In this document: piece by piece, positions 42,979-46,224 of the stretch | Position numbering within the stretch: the first letter of the stretch is position 1 | Layout of the letters: the number at the start of each line of letters is the position of its first letter | Assembly (NCBI GenBank): GCA_036846005.1 | Contig: DAIUCV010000003.1 | Location: 1-46,224, forward strand | DNA: 46,224 nt | Direction of reading: 5' to 3' | Origin: Patescibacteria group bacterium | Lineage (GTDB): Bacteria; Patescibacteriota; Microgenomatia; UBA8517 | Program-made: the position numbers and the translations under genes | Notes under the pieces: model-generated | Databases searched by the model: none | The model's input: only the letters and a program-made list of their open reading frames with translations | Told to the model about the DNA's origin: nothing

Positions 42979-43302
42979 CTAGGGTATTGTGATACGAAAT
43001 ACGGTTGTATCTACCCCTGTTATTGTTTGAATAATCCTAAGAATTAGGAATGATAGAACAATAACGACAAGCCCTATTATGGCTGATGTTAACGTTTTTC
43101 TCGCACCCTCAACTTTAGCTGGTTCACCTCCGGCTGTTATAAATTTGAAGCCTCCCATAATAAGAAGGATAAAAAGAACTATCCCTGCGATACTTAAAGC
43201 AACTGCTACGATATTGTTGAAGAGATATTCAACAGATTGAATAGTCAAAACACCATCTACGACCTCGCCTCCTTCAGGTGGTCTAACTTGTGCAAGATAC
43301 AT
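42979..43302 (-). CDS. VirB2/TrbC-like hairpin pilin paralog P8
   Basis: The layout is TM1, IMGGFKFITAGGEPAKVEGARKTLTSAIIGLVVIV, then TM2. The N-terminus is MYLAQV. Confidence 0.7.
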   Translation of the reverse strand: MYLAQVRPPEGGEVVDGVLTIQSVEYLFNNIVAVALSIAGIVLFILLIMGGFKFITAGGEPAKVEGARKTLTSAIIGLVVIVLSFLILRIIQTITGVDTTVFRITIP

Positions 43303-43382
43303 ATGTAAACAAGTTTATCTCAAAAGTTAATAAGGAAGCAAGTAAGTTTTTTTAATATATTTTTATCTTTATATCTTACGTA

Positions 43383-43760
43383 TTATATGATGGGGATTGT
43401 CAAATTGAAGATATCAACACTGAAGAAAGCACCAATTAAGGCTGCTATTGCCCAAGCAGCAAAAACAATAACAAGACCAATAAGGGCATGAGTGACTTGA
43501 TTCCTAGCTGCTTCTGTTTGGGCTTTGTCACCCCCCGAAACTATCCATCTGATTCCTCCGACAACCAACATAAAGAAGAAGACCAAAGCAGCAATGATAA
43601 TTGCGAATTTAATAAGTCCAGATACAATTCTTGGTATAGTCAACTCTGTAAGATCACTGGCCAATCCATCTTCTGGCTTGAGGTTTATAATAGTATCATC
43701 TGCGGCATACGTAAAAGGAATAAAAGATAAAAATCTTAAATATTTTGAGATCTTTTGCAT
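43383..43760 (-). CDS. VirB2/TrbC-like hairpin pilin paralog P7 (signal-peptide-like N-terminus)
   Basis: LSFIPFTYA|ADD looks like a signal-peptide cleavage site. The core is VVGGIRWIVSGGDKAQTEAARNQVTHALIGLVIVF. Confidence 0.7.
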   Translation of the reverse strand: MQKISKYLRFLSFIPFTYAADDTIINLKPEDGLASDLTELTIPRIVSGLIKFAIIIAALVFFFMLVVGGIRWIVSGGDKAQTEAARNQVTHALIGLVIVFAAWAIAALIGAFFSVDIFNLTIPII

Positions 43761-43815
43761 GTTTCTAATGTATTATCAAATTATTATATGTGAAATGTCA
43801 AGAGTTAATTAATTT

Positions 43816-44175
43816 TTAGACTATTCTCAATACTCCAATATCAAGTTCCAATATGTTTATAGTAAAGAACGTTTCTATTAATTTAATCAAAGCAAAAACC
43901 ACAAAAAGAACAATAAGTCCTATTATGGCATTCATTACTTTACCTCTAGCTGCTTCTACCGAGGCTTTATCTCCGCCTGAACTTATCCATTGAATAGCAC
44001 CTATTATCATAATAAAAACAAATATTATAACTCCAACGACAAACCCAATGCCAACCAAAGCGGGTATTAACCTTTGGAAAAAGGCAAAGGGACCCTCATT
44101 CAGCAAATCCGTGAGGGGTTGACCAAATATGGGATTGGTTATTTCGTGGGGAGCACCAGCTAATAATTTATTCAT
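43816..44175 (-). CDS. VirB2/TrbC-like hairpin pilin paralog P6
   Basis: The core is IIGAIQWISSGGDKASVEAARGKVMNAIIGLIVLF. The start was chosen at MNKLLAG (ATG at 44175). The longest ORF extends to 44217 and overlaps P5. Confidence 0.7.
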   Translation of the reverse strand: MNKLLAGAPHEITNPIFGQPLTDLLNEGPFAFFQRLIPALVGIGFVVGVIIFVFIMIIGAIQWISSGGDKASVEAARGKVMNAIIGLIVLFVVFALIKLIETFFTINILELDIGVLRIV

Positions 44176-44191
44176 AGTGTTTAGTTTATAT

Positions 44192-44575
44192 TTATGGACC
44201 CCAAATATTGCCAACAAATCTACCCGGGCTTAGTATGAAATTCATATCAAGGCCTAGTAAGTATCCGATAAGAGTAACTACAAATATAGCTCCAATCATT
44301 ACCACCAGACCTACAATGGCATTTGTTATTTTTTTTCTGGCAGCCTCAAGTGCGTTTTTATCGCCTCCCGAACCTATAATTCCTATTGCCCCCAGGATAA
44401 GAGAAATGAGAAACCAAAGTATACCGACGATAGTTAAGATACCAATGGTTGCTGTAATAAATTTTTCGAAAAGGGTTCCGGCATTAGATGCATCACCCAG
44501 ACCTTCAAAGCCGAGTGGTCCAATTCCCTCAAAAGGATCACCTATATCTTCAGCTAATAATTGTATTTTTTCCAT
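44192..44575 (-). CDS. VirB2/TrbC-like hairpin pilin paralog P5
   Basis: The core is ILGAIGIIGSGGDKNALEAARKKITNAIVGLVVMI. Confidence 0.7.
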   Translation of the reverse strand: MEKIQLLAEDIGDPFEGIGPLGFEGLGDASNAGTLFEKFITATIGILTIVGILWFLISLILGAIGIIGSGGDKNALEAARKKITNAIVGLVVMIGAIFVVTLIGYLLGLDMNFILSPGRFVGNIWGP

Positions 44576-44580
44576 ATCTT

Positions 44581-44928
44581 CTATTGACCAGGACCAAAGA
44601 CCTTAAACTGTAGCAGTGCATTCCAATCATTAAATATTAATTTGCCAAATATACCGGCCAGGACAAAAGATCCTGCGGCAACGGCTAGACCCAAAAGAGT
44701 TTGCCAAATTTTGGCCGATGCAGCGGTTACTTTTTTGGGGTCGTCTCCAGCTGACATAAAGGCATAACCGGCAAGAACTAGATTGATAAGAGCATAAATT
44801 CCCGCAAGCACAATTGCGAATTTAATAATATTATTTATAAATAGAGGTAGTCCGGACAATCCACCTGAGTCATATTCTTTTACTCCCTCAGGGGGTGTGA
44901 TTGTTCCGAATATTTGTGCTAATTGCAT
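44581..44928 (-). CDS. VirB2/TrbC-like hairpin pilin paralog P4
   Basis: The core is VLAGYAFMSAGDDPKKVTAASAKIWQTLLGLAVAA. The N-terminus is MQLAQI. Confidence 0.65.
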   Translation of the reverse strand: MQLAQIFGTITPPEGVKEYDSGGLSGLPLFINNIIKFAIVLAGIYALINLVLAGYAFMSAGDDPKKVTAASAKIWQTLLGLAVAAGSFVLAGIFGKLIFNDWNALLQFKVFGPGQ

Positions 44929-44931
44929 AAT

Positions 44932-45252
44932 TTATAAGCCTGAATTAAGTATTGGTATTCCCGTTAATTTTTCAGTAATCTTTATTATCCAGTAAGCGCT
45001 AAAGACAATTACAAATCCAATAACTGCAGCAGTGATAACTTTCTTGCCTTTTTCTGCACCTTCGGGATTACTGTTTCCGGCTGACATTATTATCCCAAAT
45101 CCGCCGGCAATAATCAAAATAAACATAATAAAACCCGCAAAAAAAACTGCATTTGAAAGAAGGCCGGAAACCAAACTTCCAATGGTCATATTTTGCGCAG
45201 CACTTCCCTGAAAAAAGCTTTGACCGATATCTATTGCTATTAAGTTTTCCAT
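44932..45252 (-). CDS. VirB2/TrbC-like hairpin pilin paralog P3
   Basis: The core is IAGGFGIIMSAGNSNPEGAEKGKKVITAAVIGFVIVF. Confidence 0.65.
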   Translation of the reverse strand: MENLIAIDIGQSFFQGSAAQNMTIGSLVSGLLSNAVFFAGFIMFILIIAGGFGIIMSAGNSNPEGAEKGKKVITAAVIGFVIVFSAYWIIKITEKLTGIPILNSGL

Positions 45253-45258
45253 TTGTGT

Positions 45259-45573
45259 TTAAAAAATTCCTCCAAATCCTTCAATACCCAGAATTTTACC
45301 TACAATTTTAACCAGCCAGTAAGACAAGAAAACTATTATAAATCCGATTAGTGCGTTTGTAACTTTCCCTTTTGCTTCCTGCAAAGCCTTGGGTTCACCA
45401 CCCGAAATTATCATATGATAGCCACCATAAATAAGATAAAGCAAAAGCAGAAGTCCAGCAGCAGTGAAGATATAGGGAATGATGGTATTTATTATATCCC
45501 CTAAACTTTGACCAGCAAATCTAAAGTTATTACTGTTTTCTAAATTACTAAAGTCAATTTGTGCCAGTTTCAT
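45259..45573 (-). CDS. VirB2/TrbC-like hairpin pilin paralog P2
   Basis: The core is IYGGYHMIISGGEPKALQEAKGKVTNALIGFIIVF. The N-terminus is MKLAQI. Confidence 0.7.
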   Translation of the reverse strand: MKLAQIDFSNLENSNNFRFAGQSLGDIINTIIPYIFTAAGLLLLLYLIYGGYHMIISGGEPKALQEAKGKVTNALIGFIIVFLSYWLVKIVGKILGIEGFGGIF

Positions 45574-45574
45574 T

Positions 45575-46162
45575 TTATAAACCTAAACCCGGAATTTTTA
45601 GAATATCAACTCCGATAATTCTTAATATAAATACCGAAAATATTAAAAGTACCACACCCATTATAGCGCTTGTCAAAAGCTCCTGCCCAGCTTTTAATCT
45701 ATCCGGATTACCAGATGAGGTCATGATAATAAATCCGGCGTAAATCATTAAAAGAAACGCAATTCCTCCAGCTATACCTATACCCCAGGTGAGAATAAAA
45801 CCAAAAAATTCATTCTGGCTACCCAAAGGAATACAACCGAATGCCGTATCGATTTTAAAGTCATCCCCTGCACAGAGTGGTTCCGCTTGGTCGGTCGAAG
45901 GTACAGTGGGAATTGGAGTAGCAGTAACAGTGCCGGTGGGAGTTGCTGAAGGTGTTGGTGTTACACAGACACAGCTATTGGAACCGCCATCGCATTGAAA
46001 AGTACAACGGGCATAACTGTCACCTGTGCAGTGATTGTTACCACTATCCACAATACAATCTTCCAAAAAATGTGAACAGGTACAACTTTGAGCAAAACTT
46101 GTTTTGGGGAACATAACAAAAAACAAAAAGATAAGAGAAAAGAACAATAGTATTTTCTTCAT
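45575..46162 (-). CDS. Pilin paralog P1: signal peptide, 10-Cys head domain, Thr/Pro linker and VirB2-like hairpin
   Basis: The signal peptide is MKKILLFFSLIFLFFVMFPKTSFA|Q. The head is CTCSHFLEDC...CTGDSYARCTFQCDGGSNSCVC, followed by a TPTPSATPTGTVTATPIPTVPS linker. The hairpin core is IYAGFIIMTSSGNPDRLKAGQELLTSAIMGVVLLI. A TTG at 46192 is an alternative start. Confidence 0.7.
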   Translation of the reverse strand: MKKILLFFSLIFLFFVMFPKTSFAQSCTCSHFLEDCIVDSGNNHCTGDSYARCTFQCDGGSNSCVCVTPTPSATPTGTVTATPIPTVPSTDQAEPLCAGDDFKIDTAFGCIPLGSQNEFFGFILTWGIGIAGGIAFLLMIYAGFIIMTSSGNPDRLKAGQELLTSAIMGVVLLIFSVFILRIIGVDILKIPGLGL

Positions 46163-46224
46163 TAATTTTAGTTTAACATAACAGGAAACCAAGATTAAGA
46201 TTCTAGTTGCTATAATAGAACAAC

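What the first reader, a model, noticed from the sequence alone, without database searches (positions are those of the whole stretch)
42979..46192. Eight tandem, diverged VirB2/TrbC-like hairpin pilin paralogs
Eight consecutive small ORFs of about 104-195 aa share one architecture. A variable N-terminal segment is followed by TM1, a short basic loop and TM2. The loop has a conserved motif (G/A)G..h..S(G/A)G(D/E/N)(P/K)....A(K/R).K(I/V)..A(I/L)IG(L/F)hIV.

The positively charged loop predicts an N-out/C-out hairpin like VirB2. P1-P5 are packed with 1-6 nt gaps, and P5-P6 with 16 nt. P6-P7, P7-P8 and P8-to-next are separated by 55, 80 and 38 nt, which leaves room for internal promoters.

The DNA of the conserved loop differs at most synonymous positions between paralogs; compare the GGDKA..EAAR regions of P6 and P7. 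The copies are therefore old and maintained, not a recent amplification.

Two N-terminal classes exist. P1 and P7 have signal-peptide-like starts. P2, P4 and P8 begin M(K/Q/Y)LAQ(I/V) with no signal peptide, and P4 and P8 also share a PPEG motif. A T4SS normally carries one major pilin, so eight suggests a heteropolymeric filament, differential expression, or antigenic or host-range variation.
Basis: partly seen in the sequence, partly recalled or inferred. Interest (0 to 1): 0.82.

Follow-up and report, generated by a model that had tools for sequence, protein, structure and literature searches.

The report
Patescibacterial eight-gene T4SS pilin array
Eight adjacent small genes encode diverged copies of a VirB2-like two-helix membrane "pilin" at the head of the chromosomal type IV secretion locus of an ultra-small Patescibacteria (Microgenomates) bacterium. 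The feature is real and correctly read, but such pilin arrays were already described in 2023-2025; what I add is that these eight are a fixed, ordered kit conserved across many species.

Summary
Eight tandem minus-strand genes (42979-46162) of 104-195 aa each encode a two-helix hydrophobic hairpin. All eight match Pfam PF18895 (T4SS_pilin), four of them above the curated cut-off. They lie upstream of a monoderm-type T4SS locus (weak lysozyme-like protein, PrgI/VirB3-like, TrsD-like, VirB4, M23 peptidase) next to dnaA/dnaN. The source is a public Microgenomates MAG, and the array is complete at eight.

This kind of array is published. Wang 2023 found six individually essential pilins in S. epibionticum. 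Quinonero-Coronel 2025 found 441 arrays of 2-11 pilins, mostly in Microgenomatia.

I add four points.
- The eight are strict positional orthologues (order 1-8) in at least 21 species-level genomes.
- Gene 1 always carries a signal peptide and a variable Cys-rich ectodomain.
- Gene 8 has a conserved internal promoter that ends about 9 nt before its start codon.
- The closest curated relative is a Mycoplasma ICE pilin-like protein; similarity to TrbC/VirB2 itself is not significant.

The data favour a heteromeric pilus or conduit with specialised subunits over antigenic variation. No filament has ever been seen. Interest is modest.

The parts
45575..46162 (-). P1 / group G1 pilin: signal peptide (1-24), Cys-rich segment and Thr/Pro linker, then a C-terminal pilin hairpin. 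It is the first gene of the array.
   Evidence: PF18895 E 2.9e-4, 21.3 bits. Signal-like hydrophobic segment at residues 1-24. Orthologues always occupy position 1. 18 of 24 have a signal-like segment, with 45-300 residues and a median of 8 Cys before TM1.
45259..45573 (-). P2 / G2 pilin (104 aa, no signal peptide, starts MKLAQ)
   Evidence: PF18895 40.0 bits, above the 26.6 cut-off. Positional orthologues at 44-91% identity.
44932..45252 (-). P3 / G3 pilin (106 aa)
   Evidence: PF18895 26.5 bits, E 6.9e-6. Positional orthologues.
44581..44928 (-). P4 / G4 pilin (115 aa, MQLAQ start, PPEG motif, Ala/Gly-rich TM2)
   Evidence: PF18895 19.8 bits, E 8.6e-4. 108 bits on the array-derived HMM. The G4 group has mean orthologue identity 0.61.
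44192..44575 (-). P5 / G5 pilin (127 aa)
   Evidence: PF18895 20.4 bits, E 5.6e-4. Positional orthologues.
43816..44175 (-). P6 / G6 pilin (119 aa from the ATG at 44175)
   Evidence: PF18895 27.3 bits. The gene call on the source contig is 119 aa. Orthologues start MNxLLAGAP.
43383..43760 (-). P7 / G7 pilin (125 aa, weak signal-like N-terminus). G7 is the most conserved group.
   Evidence: PF18895 40.8 bits. G7 mean orthologue identity is 0.70, the highest of the eight groups.
42979..43302 (-). P8 / G8 pilin (107 aa). It is the last gene of the array and the best match to the family profile.
   Evidence: PF18895 41.9 bits. 70 database homologues, all PF18895. The AF2 model is a helical hairpin, H21-56 and H61-95, pLDDT 81.
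43772..43801 (-). Promoter-like site in the P6-P7 spacer: TTGACA, 18 nt, GATAAT, ending 11 nt before the P7 ATG
   Evidence: Best promoter-like match in the region, 11 of 12 positions. This is a consensus match only. A gap of at least 30 nt before G7 occurs in 35% of related arrays.
43312..43341 (-). Conserved promoter-like site in the P7-P8 spacer: TTGCTT, 18 nt, TAAACT, ending 9 nt before the P8 ATG. This predicts a near-leaderless P8 mRNA.
   Evidence: The motif TTG[CAT]N, 16-18 nt, TA[ATG]A[ACT]T occurs in 16 of 24 G7-G8 spacers from different genomes. Shuffled spacers give a mean of 0.4 and a maximum of 3 in 1000 shuffles. The -10 element ends 9 nt before the start codon in 11 of those 16. 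A spacer of at least 30 nt before G8 occurs in 96% of arrays.
40745..42940 (-). 731-aa secreted protein directly downstream, with a weak C-terminal lysozyme-like (SLT_3) domain. Candidate VirB1-like wall hydrolase.
   Evidence: PF18896 E 1.2e-4, 22.9 bits, below the 27 cut-off. A large protein (720-890 aa) occupies this position in all related loci.
40257..40748 (-). 163-aa protein of the T4SS cluster, with no family match
   Evidence: No Pfam or NCBIfam hit. An orthologue occupies this position in the closer relatives L007 and L008 (163 and 162 aa), but the more distant L009 and L010 have no gene call here.
38607..40208 (-). 533-aa protein of the T4SS cluster, with no family match. Its position suggests a VirB6-like candidate; this was not tested.
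   Evidence: No Pfam or NCBIfam hit. Conserved in position at 521-574 aa.
36294..38603 (+). 769-aa opposite-strand gene embedded in the T4SS cluster, with no family match
   Evidence: No hit. An opposite-strand gene of 633-752 aa occupies this position in all four related loci.
35092..36174 (-). PrgI-family (VirB3-like) protein, 360 aa
   Evidence: PF12666 28.5 bits, above the 27 cut-off.
34391..35086 (-). TrsD/TraC-like 231-aa protein, related to the N-terminal part of VirB4
   Evidence: NCBIfam TrsD E 9.3e-6 and VirB4_plasma N-terminal region E 7e-7. Orthologues carry PF26593 TraC-like.
32417..34378 (-). VirB4-family ATPase, 653 aa, monoderm (CD1110/MPF_FATA-like) type
   Evidence: NF045971 conju_CD1110 378 bits, above the 325 cut-off. 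Pfam P-loop_TraG 94 bits, AAA_10 and DUF87.
29842..32424 (-). 860-aa protein with a C-terminal M23 peptidase domain (cell-wall hydrolase of the locus)
   Evidence: PF01551 56 bits. S. epibionticum has a counterpart next to its virB4: SEML1_0007, an essential large protein with peptidase-like structural matches.
28637..29851 (-). 404-aa PEGA-domain protein at the end of the cluster, abutting dnaN
   Evidence: PF08308 39.6 bits. A PEGA-domain protein is annotated immediately before SEML1_0006 in the S. epibionticum supplementary table.

Best explanation
The eight genes are the complete pilin set of the chromosomal, monoderm-type (MPF_FATA-like) type IV secretion system of a Microgenomates (Patescibacteria) bacterium.

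Shown:
- Each product is a PF18895 'T4SS_pilin', a VirB2-like two-helix membrane hairpin.
- The eight are ancient, non-interchangeable paralogues kept in a fixed order (G1 to G8) across many species.
- They are linked to VirB4, TrsD-like, PrgI and wall-hydrolase genes next to the replication origin.

Inferred mechanism:
- The hairpins insert N-out/C-out, with acidic tails outside and the polar zwitterionic loop inside.
- The VirB4-powered machine extracts them from the membrane and polymerises them into one heteromeric pilus or conduit that crosses the wall toward the host cell.
- G1 is the first gene and carries a signal peptide and a hypervariable Cys-rich ectodomain. It would act as the initiating or tip (adhesin-bearing) subunit.
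- G2-G6 are tightly packed or overlapping. They would be co-translated, lower-abundance adaptor or minor subunits.
- G7 is the most conserved group. G8 is the last gene and has its own conserved promoter and a near-leaderless start. These two would be the bulk (major) subunits.

The logic resembles major plus minor pilins in type II secretion and type IV pili, not the homopolymeric VirB2 pilus.
For: Identity:
- All eight hit PF18895, four above the curated cut-off. 75 of 75 family members hit it.
- The AF2 model is a helical hairpin with pLDDT 81.
- Two hydrophobic helices and a polar loop are present in each protein.

Context:
- VirB4 passes the NF045971 cut-off. TrsD-like, PrgI, M23, PEGA and a weak SLT_3 domain are present.
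- dnaN and dnaA lie directly beyond the cluster.
- No relaxase or coupling protein is present in the window.

Fixed kit:
- Every window pilin Pi best-hits gene i in four related loci at 44-91% identity, against at most 41% to any window paralogue.
- 21 species-representative genomes carry exactly eight pilins in the order 12345678. Three carry 112345678 and one carries 1234545678.
- Each group has its own conserved signature.

Non-redundancy in a relative: all six PF18895 pilins of S. epibionticum (SEML1_0014-0019) are individually scored essential in Tn-seq (PMC10633639).

Expression:
- Median minimal gaps run 1, 3, 1, -4, -1, 14.5 and 51 nt along the array. 96% of arrays have at least 30 nt before G8.
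- A conserved promoter-like motif occurs in 16 of 24 G7-G8 spacers, against 0.4 expected.

Topology:
- N-tails have net charge -1 to -6 and loops 0 to +2.
- N-terminal fusions carry a signal peptide and Cys-rich domains.
- In Paceibacter loci, giant domains follow TM2. Both termini are therefore extracytoplasmic.
Against: - No filament built from these proteins has been seen in any Patescibacterium. The literature calls the T4SS function 'completely unknown' (PMC11665869).
- Stoichiometry, co-assembly and the roles assigned to G1 versus G7/G8 are inferred only from gene order, conservation and spacers.
- The promoter motif was defined after looking at the spacers, so its statistic is optimistic. 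It scores only 3 of 6 on the E. coli -35 consensus, and the generic scan did not list it.
- Tn-seq essentiality of small genes in an operon can reflect polar effects.
- The structural match to solved conjugative pilins is not significant. The best by target TM-score is the Aeropyrum pernix conjugation pilin 8dfu, TM 0.67, E 4.7.
- Classical VirB2 pili are homopolymers, so a heteropolymer has no precedent in this superfamily.
Confidence: 0.55

Rival explanations
1. The paralogues are alternative pilins used one or a few at a time. They would vary the surface of a homopolymeric pilus for different host strains or to evade host or phage recognition. This is the suggestion made for Patescibacteria by analogy with the Bartonella and Anaplasma VirB2 arrays.
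For: - Within-array identity is low, 13-45% in the core.
- The extracellular N- and C-tails differ most.
- Internal promoter-like sites before P7 and P8 could allow differential expression.
- PMC12102498 raises this idea.
- Array size does vary between more distant lineages, from 1 to 11.
Against: - Variation systems show lineage-specific expansion, gene conversion and rapid turnover. Here the eight are strict positional orthologues in at least 21 species, each with a group-specific conserved signature. Orthologues are much closer than paralogues.
- G1-G6 are packed or overlapping, which implies co-transcription.
- Synonymous sites are saturated, so there is no recent conversion.
- All six pilins are individually essential in S. 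epibionticum under one host condition.
Confidence: 0.15
2. The proteins never form an extracellular filament. They would be integral-membrane subunits of the translocon: a hetero-oligomeric ring, or a short stalk or pseudopilus confined to the envelope. In that case 'pilin' is a homology label only.
For: - Gram-positive-type T4SSs generally lack pili (PMC10633639).
- No pilus has been observed.
- The fold is a generic hairpin. One domain-classification annotation for an S. epibionticum pilin is F1F0 ATP synthase subunit C.
- The fixed stoichiometric kit of eight suits a defined complex as well as it suits a filament.
Against: - G1 orthologues and the Paceibacter giant fusions attach large extracytoplasmic domains to the hairpin. 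This fits display at a distance better than burial in a ring.
- The nearest curated relatives are annotated as pilin-like conjugal transfer proteins.
- Some family members reach the TrbC/VirB2 profile.
- Wall hydrolases in the locus suggest a structure that crosses the wall.
Confidence: 0.22
3. They are unrelated small two-TM proteins (holins, bacteriocin-immunity or similar) that only mimic pilins through hydrophobic composition.
For: - Short two-TM proteins give many weak compositional hits. For example, Myelin_PLP is hit by 29 of 75 members, and three window pilins score below the Pfam cut-off.
- Foldseek finds nothing significant.
Against: - PF18895 matches are consistent (75 of 75) and NF045849 matches nearly so (72 of 75), with E down to 1e-13 and 1e-9. 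No other family is hit consistently.
- Synteny with VirB4, TrsD and PrgI is invariant across genomes.
- No phage, lysis or bacteriocin genes are in the locus.
Confidence: 0.02

Closest known systems
Pilin array of the essential T4SS of Ca. Southlakia epibionticum ML1 (SEML1_0014-0019; Wang et al. 2023, PMC10633639)
   Same: - Tandem, sequence-divergent PF18895 pilins.
- Placed beside a chromosomal monoderm-type T4SS with VirB4, a TrsD-like protein, PrgI, peptidase/lysozyme and PEGA proteins, close to the start of the chromosome.
- No relaxase or coupling protein in the cluster.
   Different: - Six genes rather than eight.
- Transcribed divergently from the T4SS genes rather than co-directionally upstream of them.
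- Saccharibacterial arrays did not resolve into the eight Microgenomates orthologue groups (loci L063 and L065 gave ambiguous group calls).
- That system has experimental essentiality data; this one has none.
Patescibacteria 'VirB2 arrays' surveyed by Quinonero-Coronel et al. 2025 (PMC12102498)
   Same: The description matches: 441 arrays of 2-11 pilin genes, enriched in Microgenomatia and Saccharimonadia, mean within-array identity 25%, near virB4 and often near dnaA. The window array has 8 genes, 29% core identity, and lies in the locus that abuts dnaN/dnaA.
   Different: The paper does not report positional orthology, group-specific roles or internal promoters. It proposes host-strain versatility and states that MPF_FATA systems lack VirB2 homologues. 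I could not confirm that this assembly is in its tables.
Mbov_0395 / MMCAP2_0565 family 'pilin-like conjugal transfer protein' of Mycoplasma ICEs (NCBIfam NF045849)
   Same: It is the only curated NCBIfam family hit consistently: 72 of 75 family members, best E 1.9e-9, P8 E 5e-6 across the whole 80-position model. It belongs to a monoderm ICE whose VirB4 model (NF045975) also matches the window's VirB4 and TrsD-like proteins.
   Different: - Window proteins score below the equivalog cut-off (26 against 40 bits).
- As far as the family name indicates, the ICE protein belongs to a mobile conjugative element. It is not part of an eight-gene chromosomal array.
VirB2 / TrbC / TraA conjugative pilins of Gram-negative T4SS (Pfam PF04956; T-pilus, F-pilus)
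   Same: - Same architecture: a short amphipathic pre-helix, TM1, a short polar loop and TM2, with both ends outside.
- hhalign against authentic VirB2/TrbC sequences aligns all elements in register.
- The gene lies next to a lytic-transglycosylase-like gene and in a VirB3/VirB4 locus.
- Some PF18895 proteins also hit PF04956 (8 of 75 here; SEML1_0018 and 0019).
   Different: - None of the eight hits PF04956 at E <= 1. Profile-profile probability is 3.5%, P 0.012.
- The loop is 7 residues longer and carries the GGDP/K...EAAR motif.
- Six of the eight lack the long cleaved leader.
- Classical systems have one major pilin plus a VirB5 tip protein and an outer-membrane core complex. None of these is present here.
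VirB2 paralogue arrays of Bartonella, Anaplasma and Rickettsia T4SS
   Same: Several diverged virB2 copies in tandem within one genome. They are cited as the analogy for Patescibacteria arrays (PMC2653234 is listed).
   Different: Those are interpreted as antigenic or host-interaction variants. I did not test their evolutionary pattern. Here the copies are fixed 1:1 orthologues in conserved order across species.
Major plus minor (pseudo)pilin sets of type II secretion and type IV pili (functional analogy only)
   Same: A conserved kit of several non-interchangeable paralogous small pilins in one operon. One carries an extra domain for the tip. This statement rests on established knowledge of T2SS GspG-K and T4P minor pilins, not on a test here.
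   Different: The fold and machinery are unrelated: type IV pilin fold, PilD-processed, PilB-type ATPase. No homology is claimed.

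Membership tests
Pfam PF18895 T4SS_pilin | Match to the family HMM at or above the gathering score (26.6 bits) | tested here: met
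   P8 41.9, P7 40.8, P2 40.0 and P6 27.3 bits pass. P3 26.5, P1 21.3, P5 20.4 and P4 19.8 bits fall short but have E of 7e-6 to 9e-4, each over the whole hairpin. All eight score 99-120 bits on an HMM built from orthologous arrays (partly circular because the window's own proteins are in that HMM).
Pfam PF18895 T4SS_pilin | Two-helix hydrophobic hairpin with a short polar connector | tested here: met
   Hydropathy. Segment and charge table. AF2 model of P8: H21-56, a 4-residue turn, H61-95, pLDDT 81.
Patescibacteria T4SS pilin array (Wang 2023; Quinonero-Coronel 2025) | At least 2 tandem pilin genes with low mutual identity, located near a Patescibacteria-clade virB4 on the chromosome | tested here: met
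   Eight tandem genes with 29% mean core identity. VirB4 lies 8.6 kb downstream in the same gene cluster. Source and relatives are Microgenomates/Woesebacteria MAGs. The phylogenetic placement of this VirB4 in the 'Patescibacteria clade' was not computed.
Patescibacteria T4SS pilin array (Wang 2023; Quinonero-Coronel 2025) | Required for epibiotic growth | not testable with these tools
   Known only for S. epibionticum. There is no culture or Tn-seq for this organism.
TrbC/VirB2 pilin (Pfam PF04956) | Significant match to the TrbC/VirB2 profile | tested here: not met
   No PF04956 hit at E <= 1 for any of the eight. Only 8 of 75 relatives hit it weakly (best E 8.9e-4), no better than transmembrane noise. 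hhalign against eight authentic VirB2/TrbC proteins gives probability 3.5% and P 0.012, though in register. The PDB profile search finds no conjugative pilin.
TrbC/VirB2 pilin (Pfam PF04956) | Long N-terminal leader removed by signal peptidase before assembly | tested here: not met
   Only P1 (clear) and P7 (weak) have signal-like N-termini. The other six start 31-43 residues before TM1 with no hydrophobic leader, and no longer ORF is possible.
TrbC/VirB2 pilin (Pfam PF04956) | Structural similarity to solved conjugative pilins | tested here: inconclusive
   Foldseek against the PDB gives no hit with E <= 0.001. The Aeropyrum pernix conjugation pilin 8dfu is the best by target TM-score (0.67, rmsd 2.8 A, E 4.7). 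A helical hairpin carries too little information for a significant match.
TrbC/VirB2 pilin (Pfam PF04956) | Polymerises with phospholipid into an extracellular pilus | not testable with these tools
   Needs microscopy or biochemistry. No multimer prediction tool was available.
NCBIfam NF045849 Mbov_0395 pilin-like conjugal transfer protein (Mycoplasma ICE) | Score at or above the equivalog cut-off (40 bits) | tested here: not met
   P8 26.1 bits (E 5e-6) and P7 20.1 bits (E 3.6e-4). 72 of 75 family members match at E <= 0.01. This is a related family, not the same equivalog.
Antigenic/host-range variation pilin arrays (Bartonella/Anaplasma type) | Lineage-specific copy turnover or conversion, so that paralogues are closer within a genome than between genomes (my operational criterion) | tested here: not met
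   Orthologues at 44-91% identity against paralogues at 41% or less. Order 12345678 in 21 species representatives. Synonymous sites are saturated between paralogues.

The most novel reading that the evidence does not exclude
The eight pilins co-assemble in a defined order into a single heteromeric VirB2-type filament. It would have an adhesin-bearing tip or initiator (G1), five adaptor or minor subunits (G2-G6), and one or two major subunits (G7/G8). G8 would be made from a conserved internal promoter as a near-leaderless mRNA. This would be the first conjugative-type (VirB2-superfamily) pilus with dedicated minor pilins. The whole kit would have been inherited together with a monoderm (Mollicutes-ICE-like) machinery, not borrowed from Gram-negative systems.
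Probability: 0.3. Interest if true: 0.65.

Novelty: new member of a known kind. Interest (0 to 1): 0.33.

Why it matters
The T4SS is one of the few machines shown to be essential for the epibiotic life of Patescibacteria, and its function is still unknown. Its pilin arrays are what most set it apart from other Gram-positive-type T4SSs. This locus adds no new kind of system, but it offers a clean comparative handle.

- In Woesebacteria-like Microgenomates the array is an invariant ordered kit of eight orthologue groups, each with a distinct signature.
- One group carries a hypervariable Cys-rich ectodomain.
- The last gene has a conserved internal promoter.

These points turn 'why so many pilins?' into testable predictions about stoichiometry, assembly order, a tip adhesin and a leaderless major subunit. 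They also argue against the published host-range-variation idea. The consistent link to a Mycoplasma ICE pilin-like protein suggests that VirB2-like subunits are native to some monoderm T4SSs.

Tried and rejected
- A PDB sequence-profile search with the family alignment gave only spurious hits to de novo designed helical repeats that share a 'GDPKAVE' turn. No pilin was found.
- Foldseek of the AF2 model against the PDB gave nothing significant.
- hhalign against authentic VirB2/TrbC sequences fetched from plasmids gave an in-register but non-significant match.
- dN/dS between paralogues could not be estimated because synonymous sites are saturated. Only pN (0.47) below pS (0.73) can be stated.
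- The search for related loci with the broad alignment A2 failed because the alignment was too diverse. It worked with the orthologue-only alignment A3.
- The Rfam scan of 40000-46224 found nothing meaningful.
- No terminator-like hairpins lie in the P6-P7 or P7-P8 spacers.
- I looked for the operon promoter upstream of P1 using the source contig. Candidates have poor spacing, or lie too close to the ATG. It remains unresolved.
- The M(K/Q/Y)LAQ and PPEG N-terminal motifs are not general in G8. Most G8 orthologues start MxxVATISDL, and some have full signal peptides. A looser M-x-x-L-L-A start recurs in the consensus of G4 and G7, and more weakly in G2 and G5. I did not pursue this further.
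- A search of the 2025 survey's stored supplements did not find the assembly accession, so I cannot say whether this array was counted there.
- I considered a holin or immunity-protein reading and rejected it on family matches and synteny.

Full report
**1. What is there**

The region 42979-46192 holds eight consecutive minus-strand ORFs (sequence). With ATG starts they are:

| Gene | Coordinates | Length |
|---|---|---|
| P1 | 45575-46162 | 195 aa |
| P2 | 45259-45573 | 104 aa |
| P3 | 44932-45252 | 106 aa |
| P4 | 44581-44928 | 115 aa |
| P5 | 44192-44575 | 127 aa |
| P6 | 43816-44175 | 119 aa |
| P7 | 43383-43760 | 125 aa |
| P8 | 42979-43302 | 107 aa |

Public gene calls on the source contig use the same starts.

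Each protein has two strongly hydrophobic segments around a 17-19-residue polar loop. The loop and TM2 carry the SGG(D/E)(P/K)...A(R/K)...A(I/L)IG motif, which is loosest in P1 and P4. Only one alignment column is invariant.

P1 additionally has a clear signal peptide, a Cys-rich segment and a Thr/Pro linker. P7 has a weaker signal-like start. P2, P4 and P8 start M(K/Q/Y)LAQ.

It has 2-4 K+R and 2 D+E, net 0 to +2. The N-terminal tails are acidic, net -1 to -6. This still favours an N-out/C-out hairpin.

**2. Age of the copies**

Over the 69-codon core, amino-acid identity is 13-45% (mean 29%). The proportion of synonymous differences averages 0.73, which is saturation. The non-synonymous proportion is 0.47. 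Identical residues use the same codon only 36% of the time. The copies are old and under purifying selection. A numerical dN/dS cannot be given.

**3. Family**

All eight match Pfam PF18895 'T4SS_pilin' across the whole hairpin. P8, P7, P2 and P6 score above the gathering cut-off. P3 misses by 0.1 bit. P1, P5 and P4 have E of 3e-4 to 9e-4.

A database search with P8 returned 70 homologues, all PF18895. All 75 sequences of the combined alignment hit PF18895.

An AF2 model of P8 (75-sequence alignment) is a helical hairpin: H21-56, a four-residue turn, H61-95, pLDDT 81, pTM 0.58.

**4. Genomic context**

Downstream on the same strand lie, in order:
- a 731-aa protein with a weak C-terminal lysozyme-like SLT_3 domain;
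- 163-aa and 533-aa proteins with no family match;
- an embedded opposite-strand 769-aa gene;
- a PrgI-family (VirB3-like) protein;
- a 231-aa TrsD-like protein;
- a VirB4 ATPase that passes the curated cut-off of the monoderm CD1110 family (378 bits against 325);
- an M23-peptidase protein;
- a PEGA protein.

The cluster abuts dnaN and dnaA, with rnpA and yidC beyond. The rest of the window is housekeeping and holds no relaxase or coupling protein. This is therefore a chromosomal, origin-proximal, monoderm-type T4SS locus.

The window corresponds to contig MGFQ01000019.1 of assembly GCA_001791965.1. There, a divergent SpoIID gene lies directly upstream of P1, so the array is complete at eight.

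**5. Literature**

This kind of feature is already described.
- Wang et al. [quoted passage not shown] Their tables show six PF18895 proteins (SEML1_0014-0019). Each is scored essential, and two also hit TrbC/VirB2 PF04956.
- Quinonero-Coronel et al. 2025 (PMC12102498) surveyed 3,035 Patescibacteria genomes. They report 441 VirB2 arrays of 2-11 genes, enriched in Microgenomatia and Saccharimonadia, with mean identity 25%. T4SS loci are often near dnaA and usually lack a relaxase. [quoted passage not shown]
- A 2025 T4SS review highlights the same arrays.

I could not find this assembly in the stored supplements.

**6. Comparative analysis (my addition)**

Contigs encoding P8 homologues at 60-88% identity carry the same layout. 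A divergent SpoIID gene is followed by eight pilins and a large (720-890 aa) protein. Further downstream come an opposite-strand gene, PrgI, the TraC/TrsD-like protein and VirB4.

In an all-against-all BLASTP, every window pilin Pi best-hits gene i of each locus at 44-91% identity. Its best paralogue inside the window reaches only 34-41%. The one exception is a truncated gene call.

A scan of species-representative genomes gave 73 loci, mostly Woese-, Curtiss-, Levy-, Davies- and Amesbacteria. I scored them with an HMM built from the arrays and eight group HMMs.
- 21 loci have exactly eight pilins in the order 12345678.
- Three have 112345678, and one has 1234545678.
- More distant lineages have 3-6 genes, typically with G1 first and G7-G8 last.

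The group HMMs were built from the window and its four closest loci, so these group assignments are relative to that reference.

Across the eight-gene arrays the group conservation, as mean pairwise identity, is:

| Group | G7 | G4 | G8 | G1 | G3 | G6 | G2 | G5 |
|---|---|---|---|---|---|---|---|---|
| Identity | 0.70 | 0.61 | 0.59 | 0.56 | 0.54 | 0.53 | 0.51 | 0.49 |

G1 nearly always has a signal-like segment (18 of 24). It has 45-300 residues before TM1, with a median of 8 Cys (range up to 32). G2-G8 have short tails without Cys.

**7. Expression signals**

Minimal gaps along the arrays have medians of 1, 3, 1, -4, -1, 14.5 and 51 nt. A spacer of at least 30 nt precedes G8 in 96% of arrays.

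The G7-G8 spacers share a promoter-like motif (TTGCTC-like, 16-18 nt, TA[ATG]A[ACT]T) in 16 of 24 genomes. Shuffled spacers give a mean of 0.4 and a maximum of 3. The -10 element ends 9 nt before the start codon in 11 of the 16. In the window this is TTGCTT, 18 nt, TAAACT at 43341-43312.

The pattern was defined after inspection, so the statistic is optimistic. Even so, conservation of a non-coding motif across genomes whose coding DNA is saturated is hard to explain otherwise. It predicts a separately transcribed, near-leaderless G8 message.

The P6-P7 spacer holds the best generic sigma-70-like match of the region: TTGACA, 18 nt, GATAAT. The operon promoter upstream of P1 was not resolved.

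**8. Relationship to classical pilins**

None of the eight hits TrbC/VirB2 PF04956, even at E <= 1. Only 8 of 75 relatives do so weakly.

I fetched eight authentic VirB2/TrbC proteins from plasmid records. The profile-profile comparison aligned the pre-helix, TM1, loop and TM2 in register, but with probability 3.5% and P 0.012.

PDB sequence and fold searches were uninformative. The best target-normalised TM-score was an archaeal conjugation pilin: 8dfu, 0.67, not significant.

In contrast, 72 of 75 family members hit NCBIfam NF045849, best E 1.9e-9, and no other family is hit consistently. NF045849 is the Mbov_0395 'pilin-like conjugal transfer protein' of Mycoplasma ICEs. The matching Mycoplasma VirB4 model also hits the window's VirB4 and TrsD-like proteins. 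This suggests that pilin and ATPase share a monoderm ancestry. That contrasts with the statement that MPF_FATA systems lack VirB2 homologues.

**9. Topology support from fusions**

N-terminal extensions (G1) carry signal peptides and Cys-rich domains.

In two Paceibacter loci, proteins of 2872 and 3266 aa consist of a signal peptide, the pilin hairpin (residues about 48-125), a poly-Gly linker and a giant C-terminal domain.

Both ends of the hairpin are therefore used to display extracytoplasmic domains.

**10. Interpretation**

Identity as the pilin set of a Patescibacteria T4SS is secure, at about 0.9.

For mechanism, I favour a single heteromeric pilus or conduit with specialised subunits, at about 0.55. 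G1 would be the tip or initiator, G2-G6 the minor subunits and G7/G8 the major subunits. The basis is the fixed orthologous kit, operon packing, individual essentiality in S. epibionticum, the G1 ectodomain and the G8 promoter.

Rivals:
- Alternative pilins for host or antigenic variation (0.15). Orthology and packing argue against this.
- A non-filamentous membrane complex or short pseudopilus (0.22). This cannot be excluded, because no filament has ever been seen.
- Unrelated small membrane proteins (0.02).

**11. Verdict**

- The supported label is PF18895, VirB2-like. Membership of the TrbC/VirB2 family itself was not demonstrated.
- The loop is only weakly positive.
- The variation hypothesis is disfavoured.
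- Eight pilins is not unexpected in this phylum.

Novelty: a new member of a known kind, possibly already counted in the 2025 survey. Interest is modest at 0.33. The residual value lies in the strict eight-fold orthology, the G1 ectodomain, the conserved G8 promoter and the Mycoplasma ICE link.

Noticed in passing
L073:9803-19603 and L078:7780-16395 (Paceibacter-like genomes): Giant ORFs of 3266 and 2872 aa. Each consists of a signal peptide, one T4SS_pilin hairpin (residues about 48-125), a poly-Gly linker and a huge C-terminal domain. Each is preceded by a 594-aa protein that also has an N-terminal pilin hairpin. These look like pilin-anchored giant surface proteins.
   Followed up: partly
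window 42979-43760 (P8, P7) and alignment A2: The family consistently matches NCBIfam NF045849, the Mbov_0395 pilin-like conjugal transfer protein of Mycoplasma ICEs (72 of 75 members, best E 1.9e-9). VirB2-like subunits therefore seem to exist in monoderm MPF_FATA-type elements, contrary to a statement in PMC12102498.
   Followed up: partly
window P2-P7 N-termini; L008:9491-9868, L009:3054-3392, L010:9616-9948: A short M-x-x-L-L-A start recurs in the consensus of G4 and G7, and more weakly in G2 and G5. In G7 it aligns with the signal-peptidase-like site of orthologues that carry a full signal peptide (...APVLA|QDIDLNPTGQF against MQNLLA|ESINLQPTGQF). This may be a minimal leader or processing site.
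   Followed up: partly
L035:5939-10267; L051, L052 and L055 arrays; L023:6596-8112; L037:9022-9995: Variants of the eight-gene kit. L035 has a G4-G5 pair duplicated (1234545678). Three genomes have G1 duplicated (112345678). L023 has a 1.5-kb stretch between G2 and G3. L037 has stretches of about 1 kb between G7 and G8 and about 0.5 kb between G1 and G2, all without pilin ORFs.
   Followed up: no
window 36294-38603 (+): A 769-aa gene on the opposite strand is embedded in the T4SS cluster. A counterpart of 633-752 aa occupies the same position in all four related loci. It has no Pfam or NCBIfam match.
   Followed up: no
window 12711-13778 (+): A single 355-aa ORF combines a Sua5/YciO/YrdC (TsaC-like) domain with a TsaE domain and is followed by TsaD. 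This is an apparent fusion of two t6A-biosynthesis proteins.
   Followed up: no
window 25893-29851: dnaA and dnaN lie immediately beside the last gene of the T4SS cluster (the PEGA protein ends at 28637 and dnaN ends at 28635). This places the secretion locus at the replication origin, as noted for other Patescibacteria.
   Followed up: partly
window 46163-46224 versus L001:9349-9411: The window differs from the NCBI contig by at least one base in the P1 upstream spacer (tttcCtgtt against tttcTtgtt). The window therefore does not appear byte-identical to that record.
   Followed up: no
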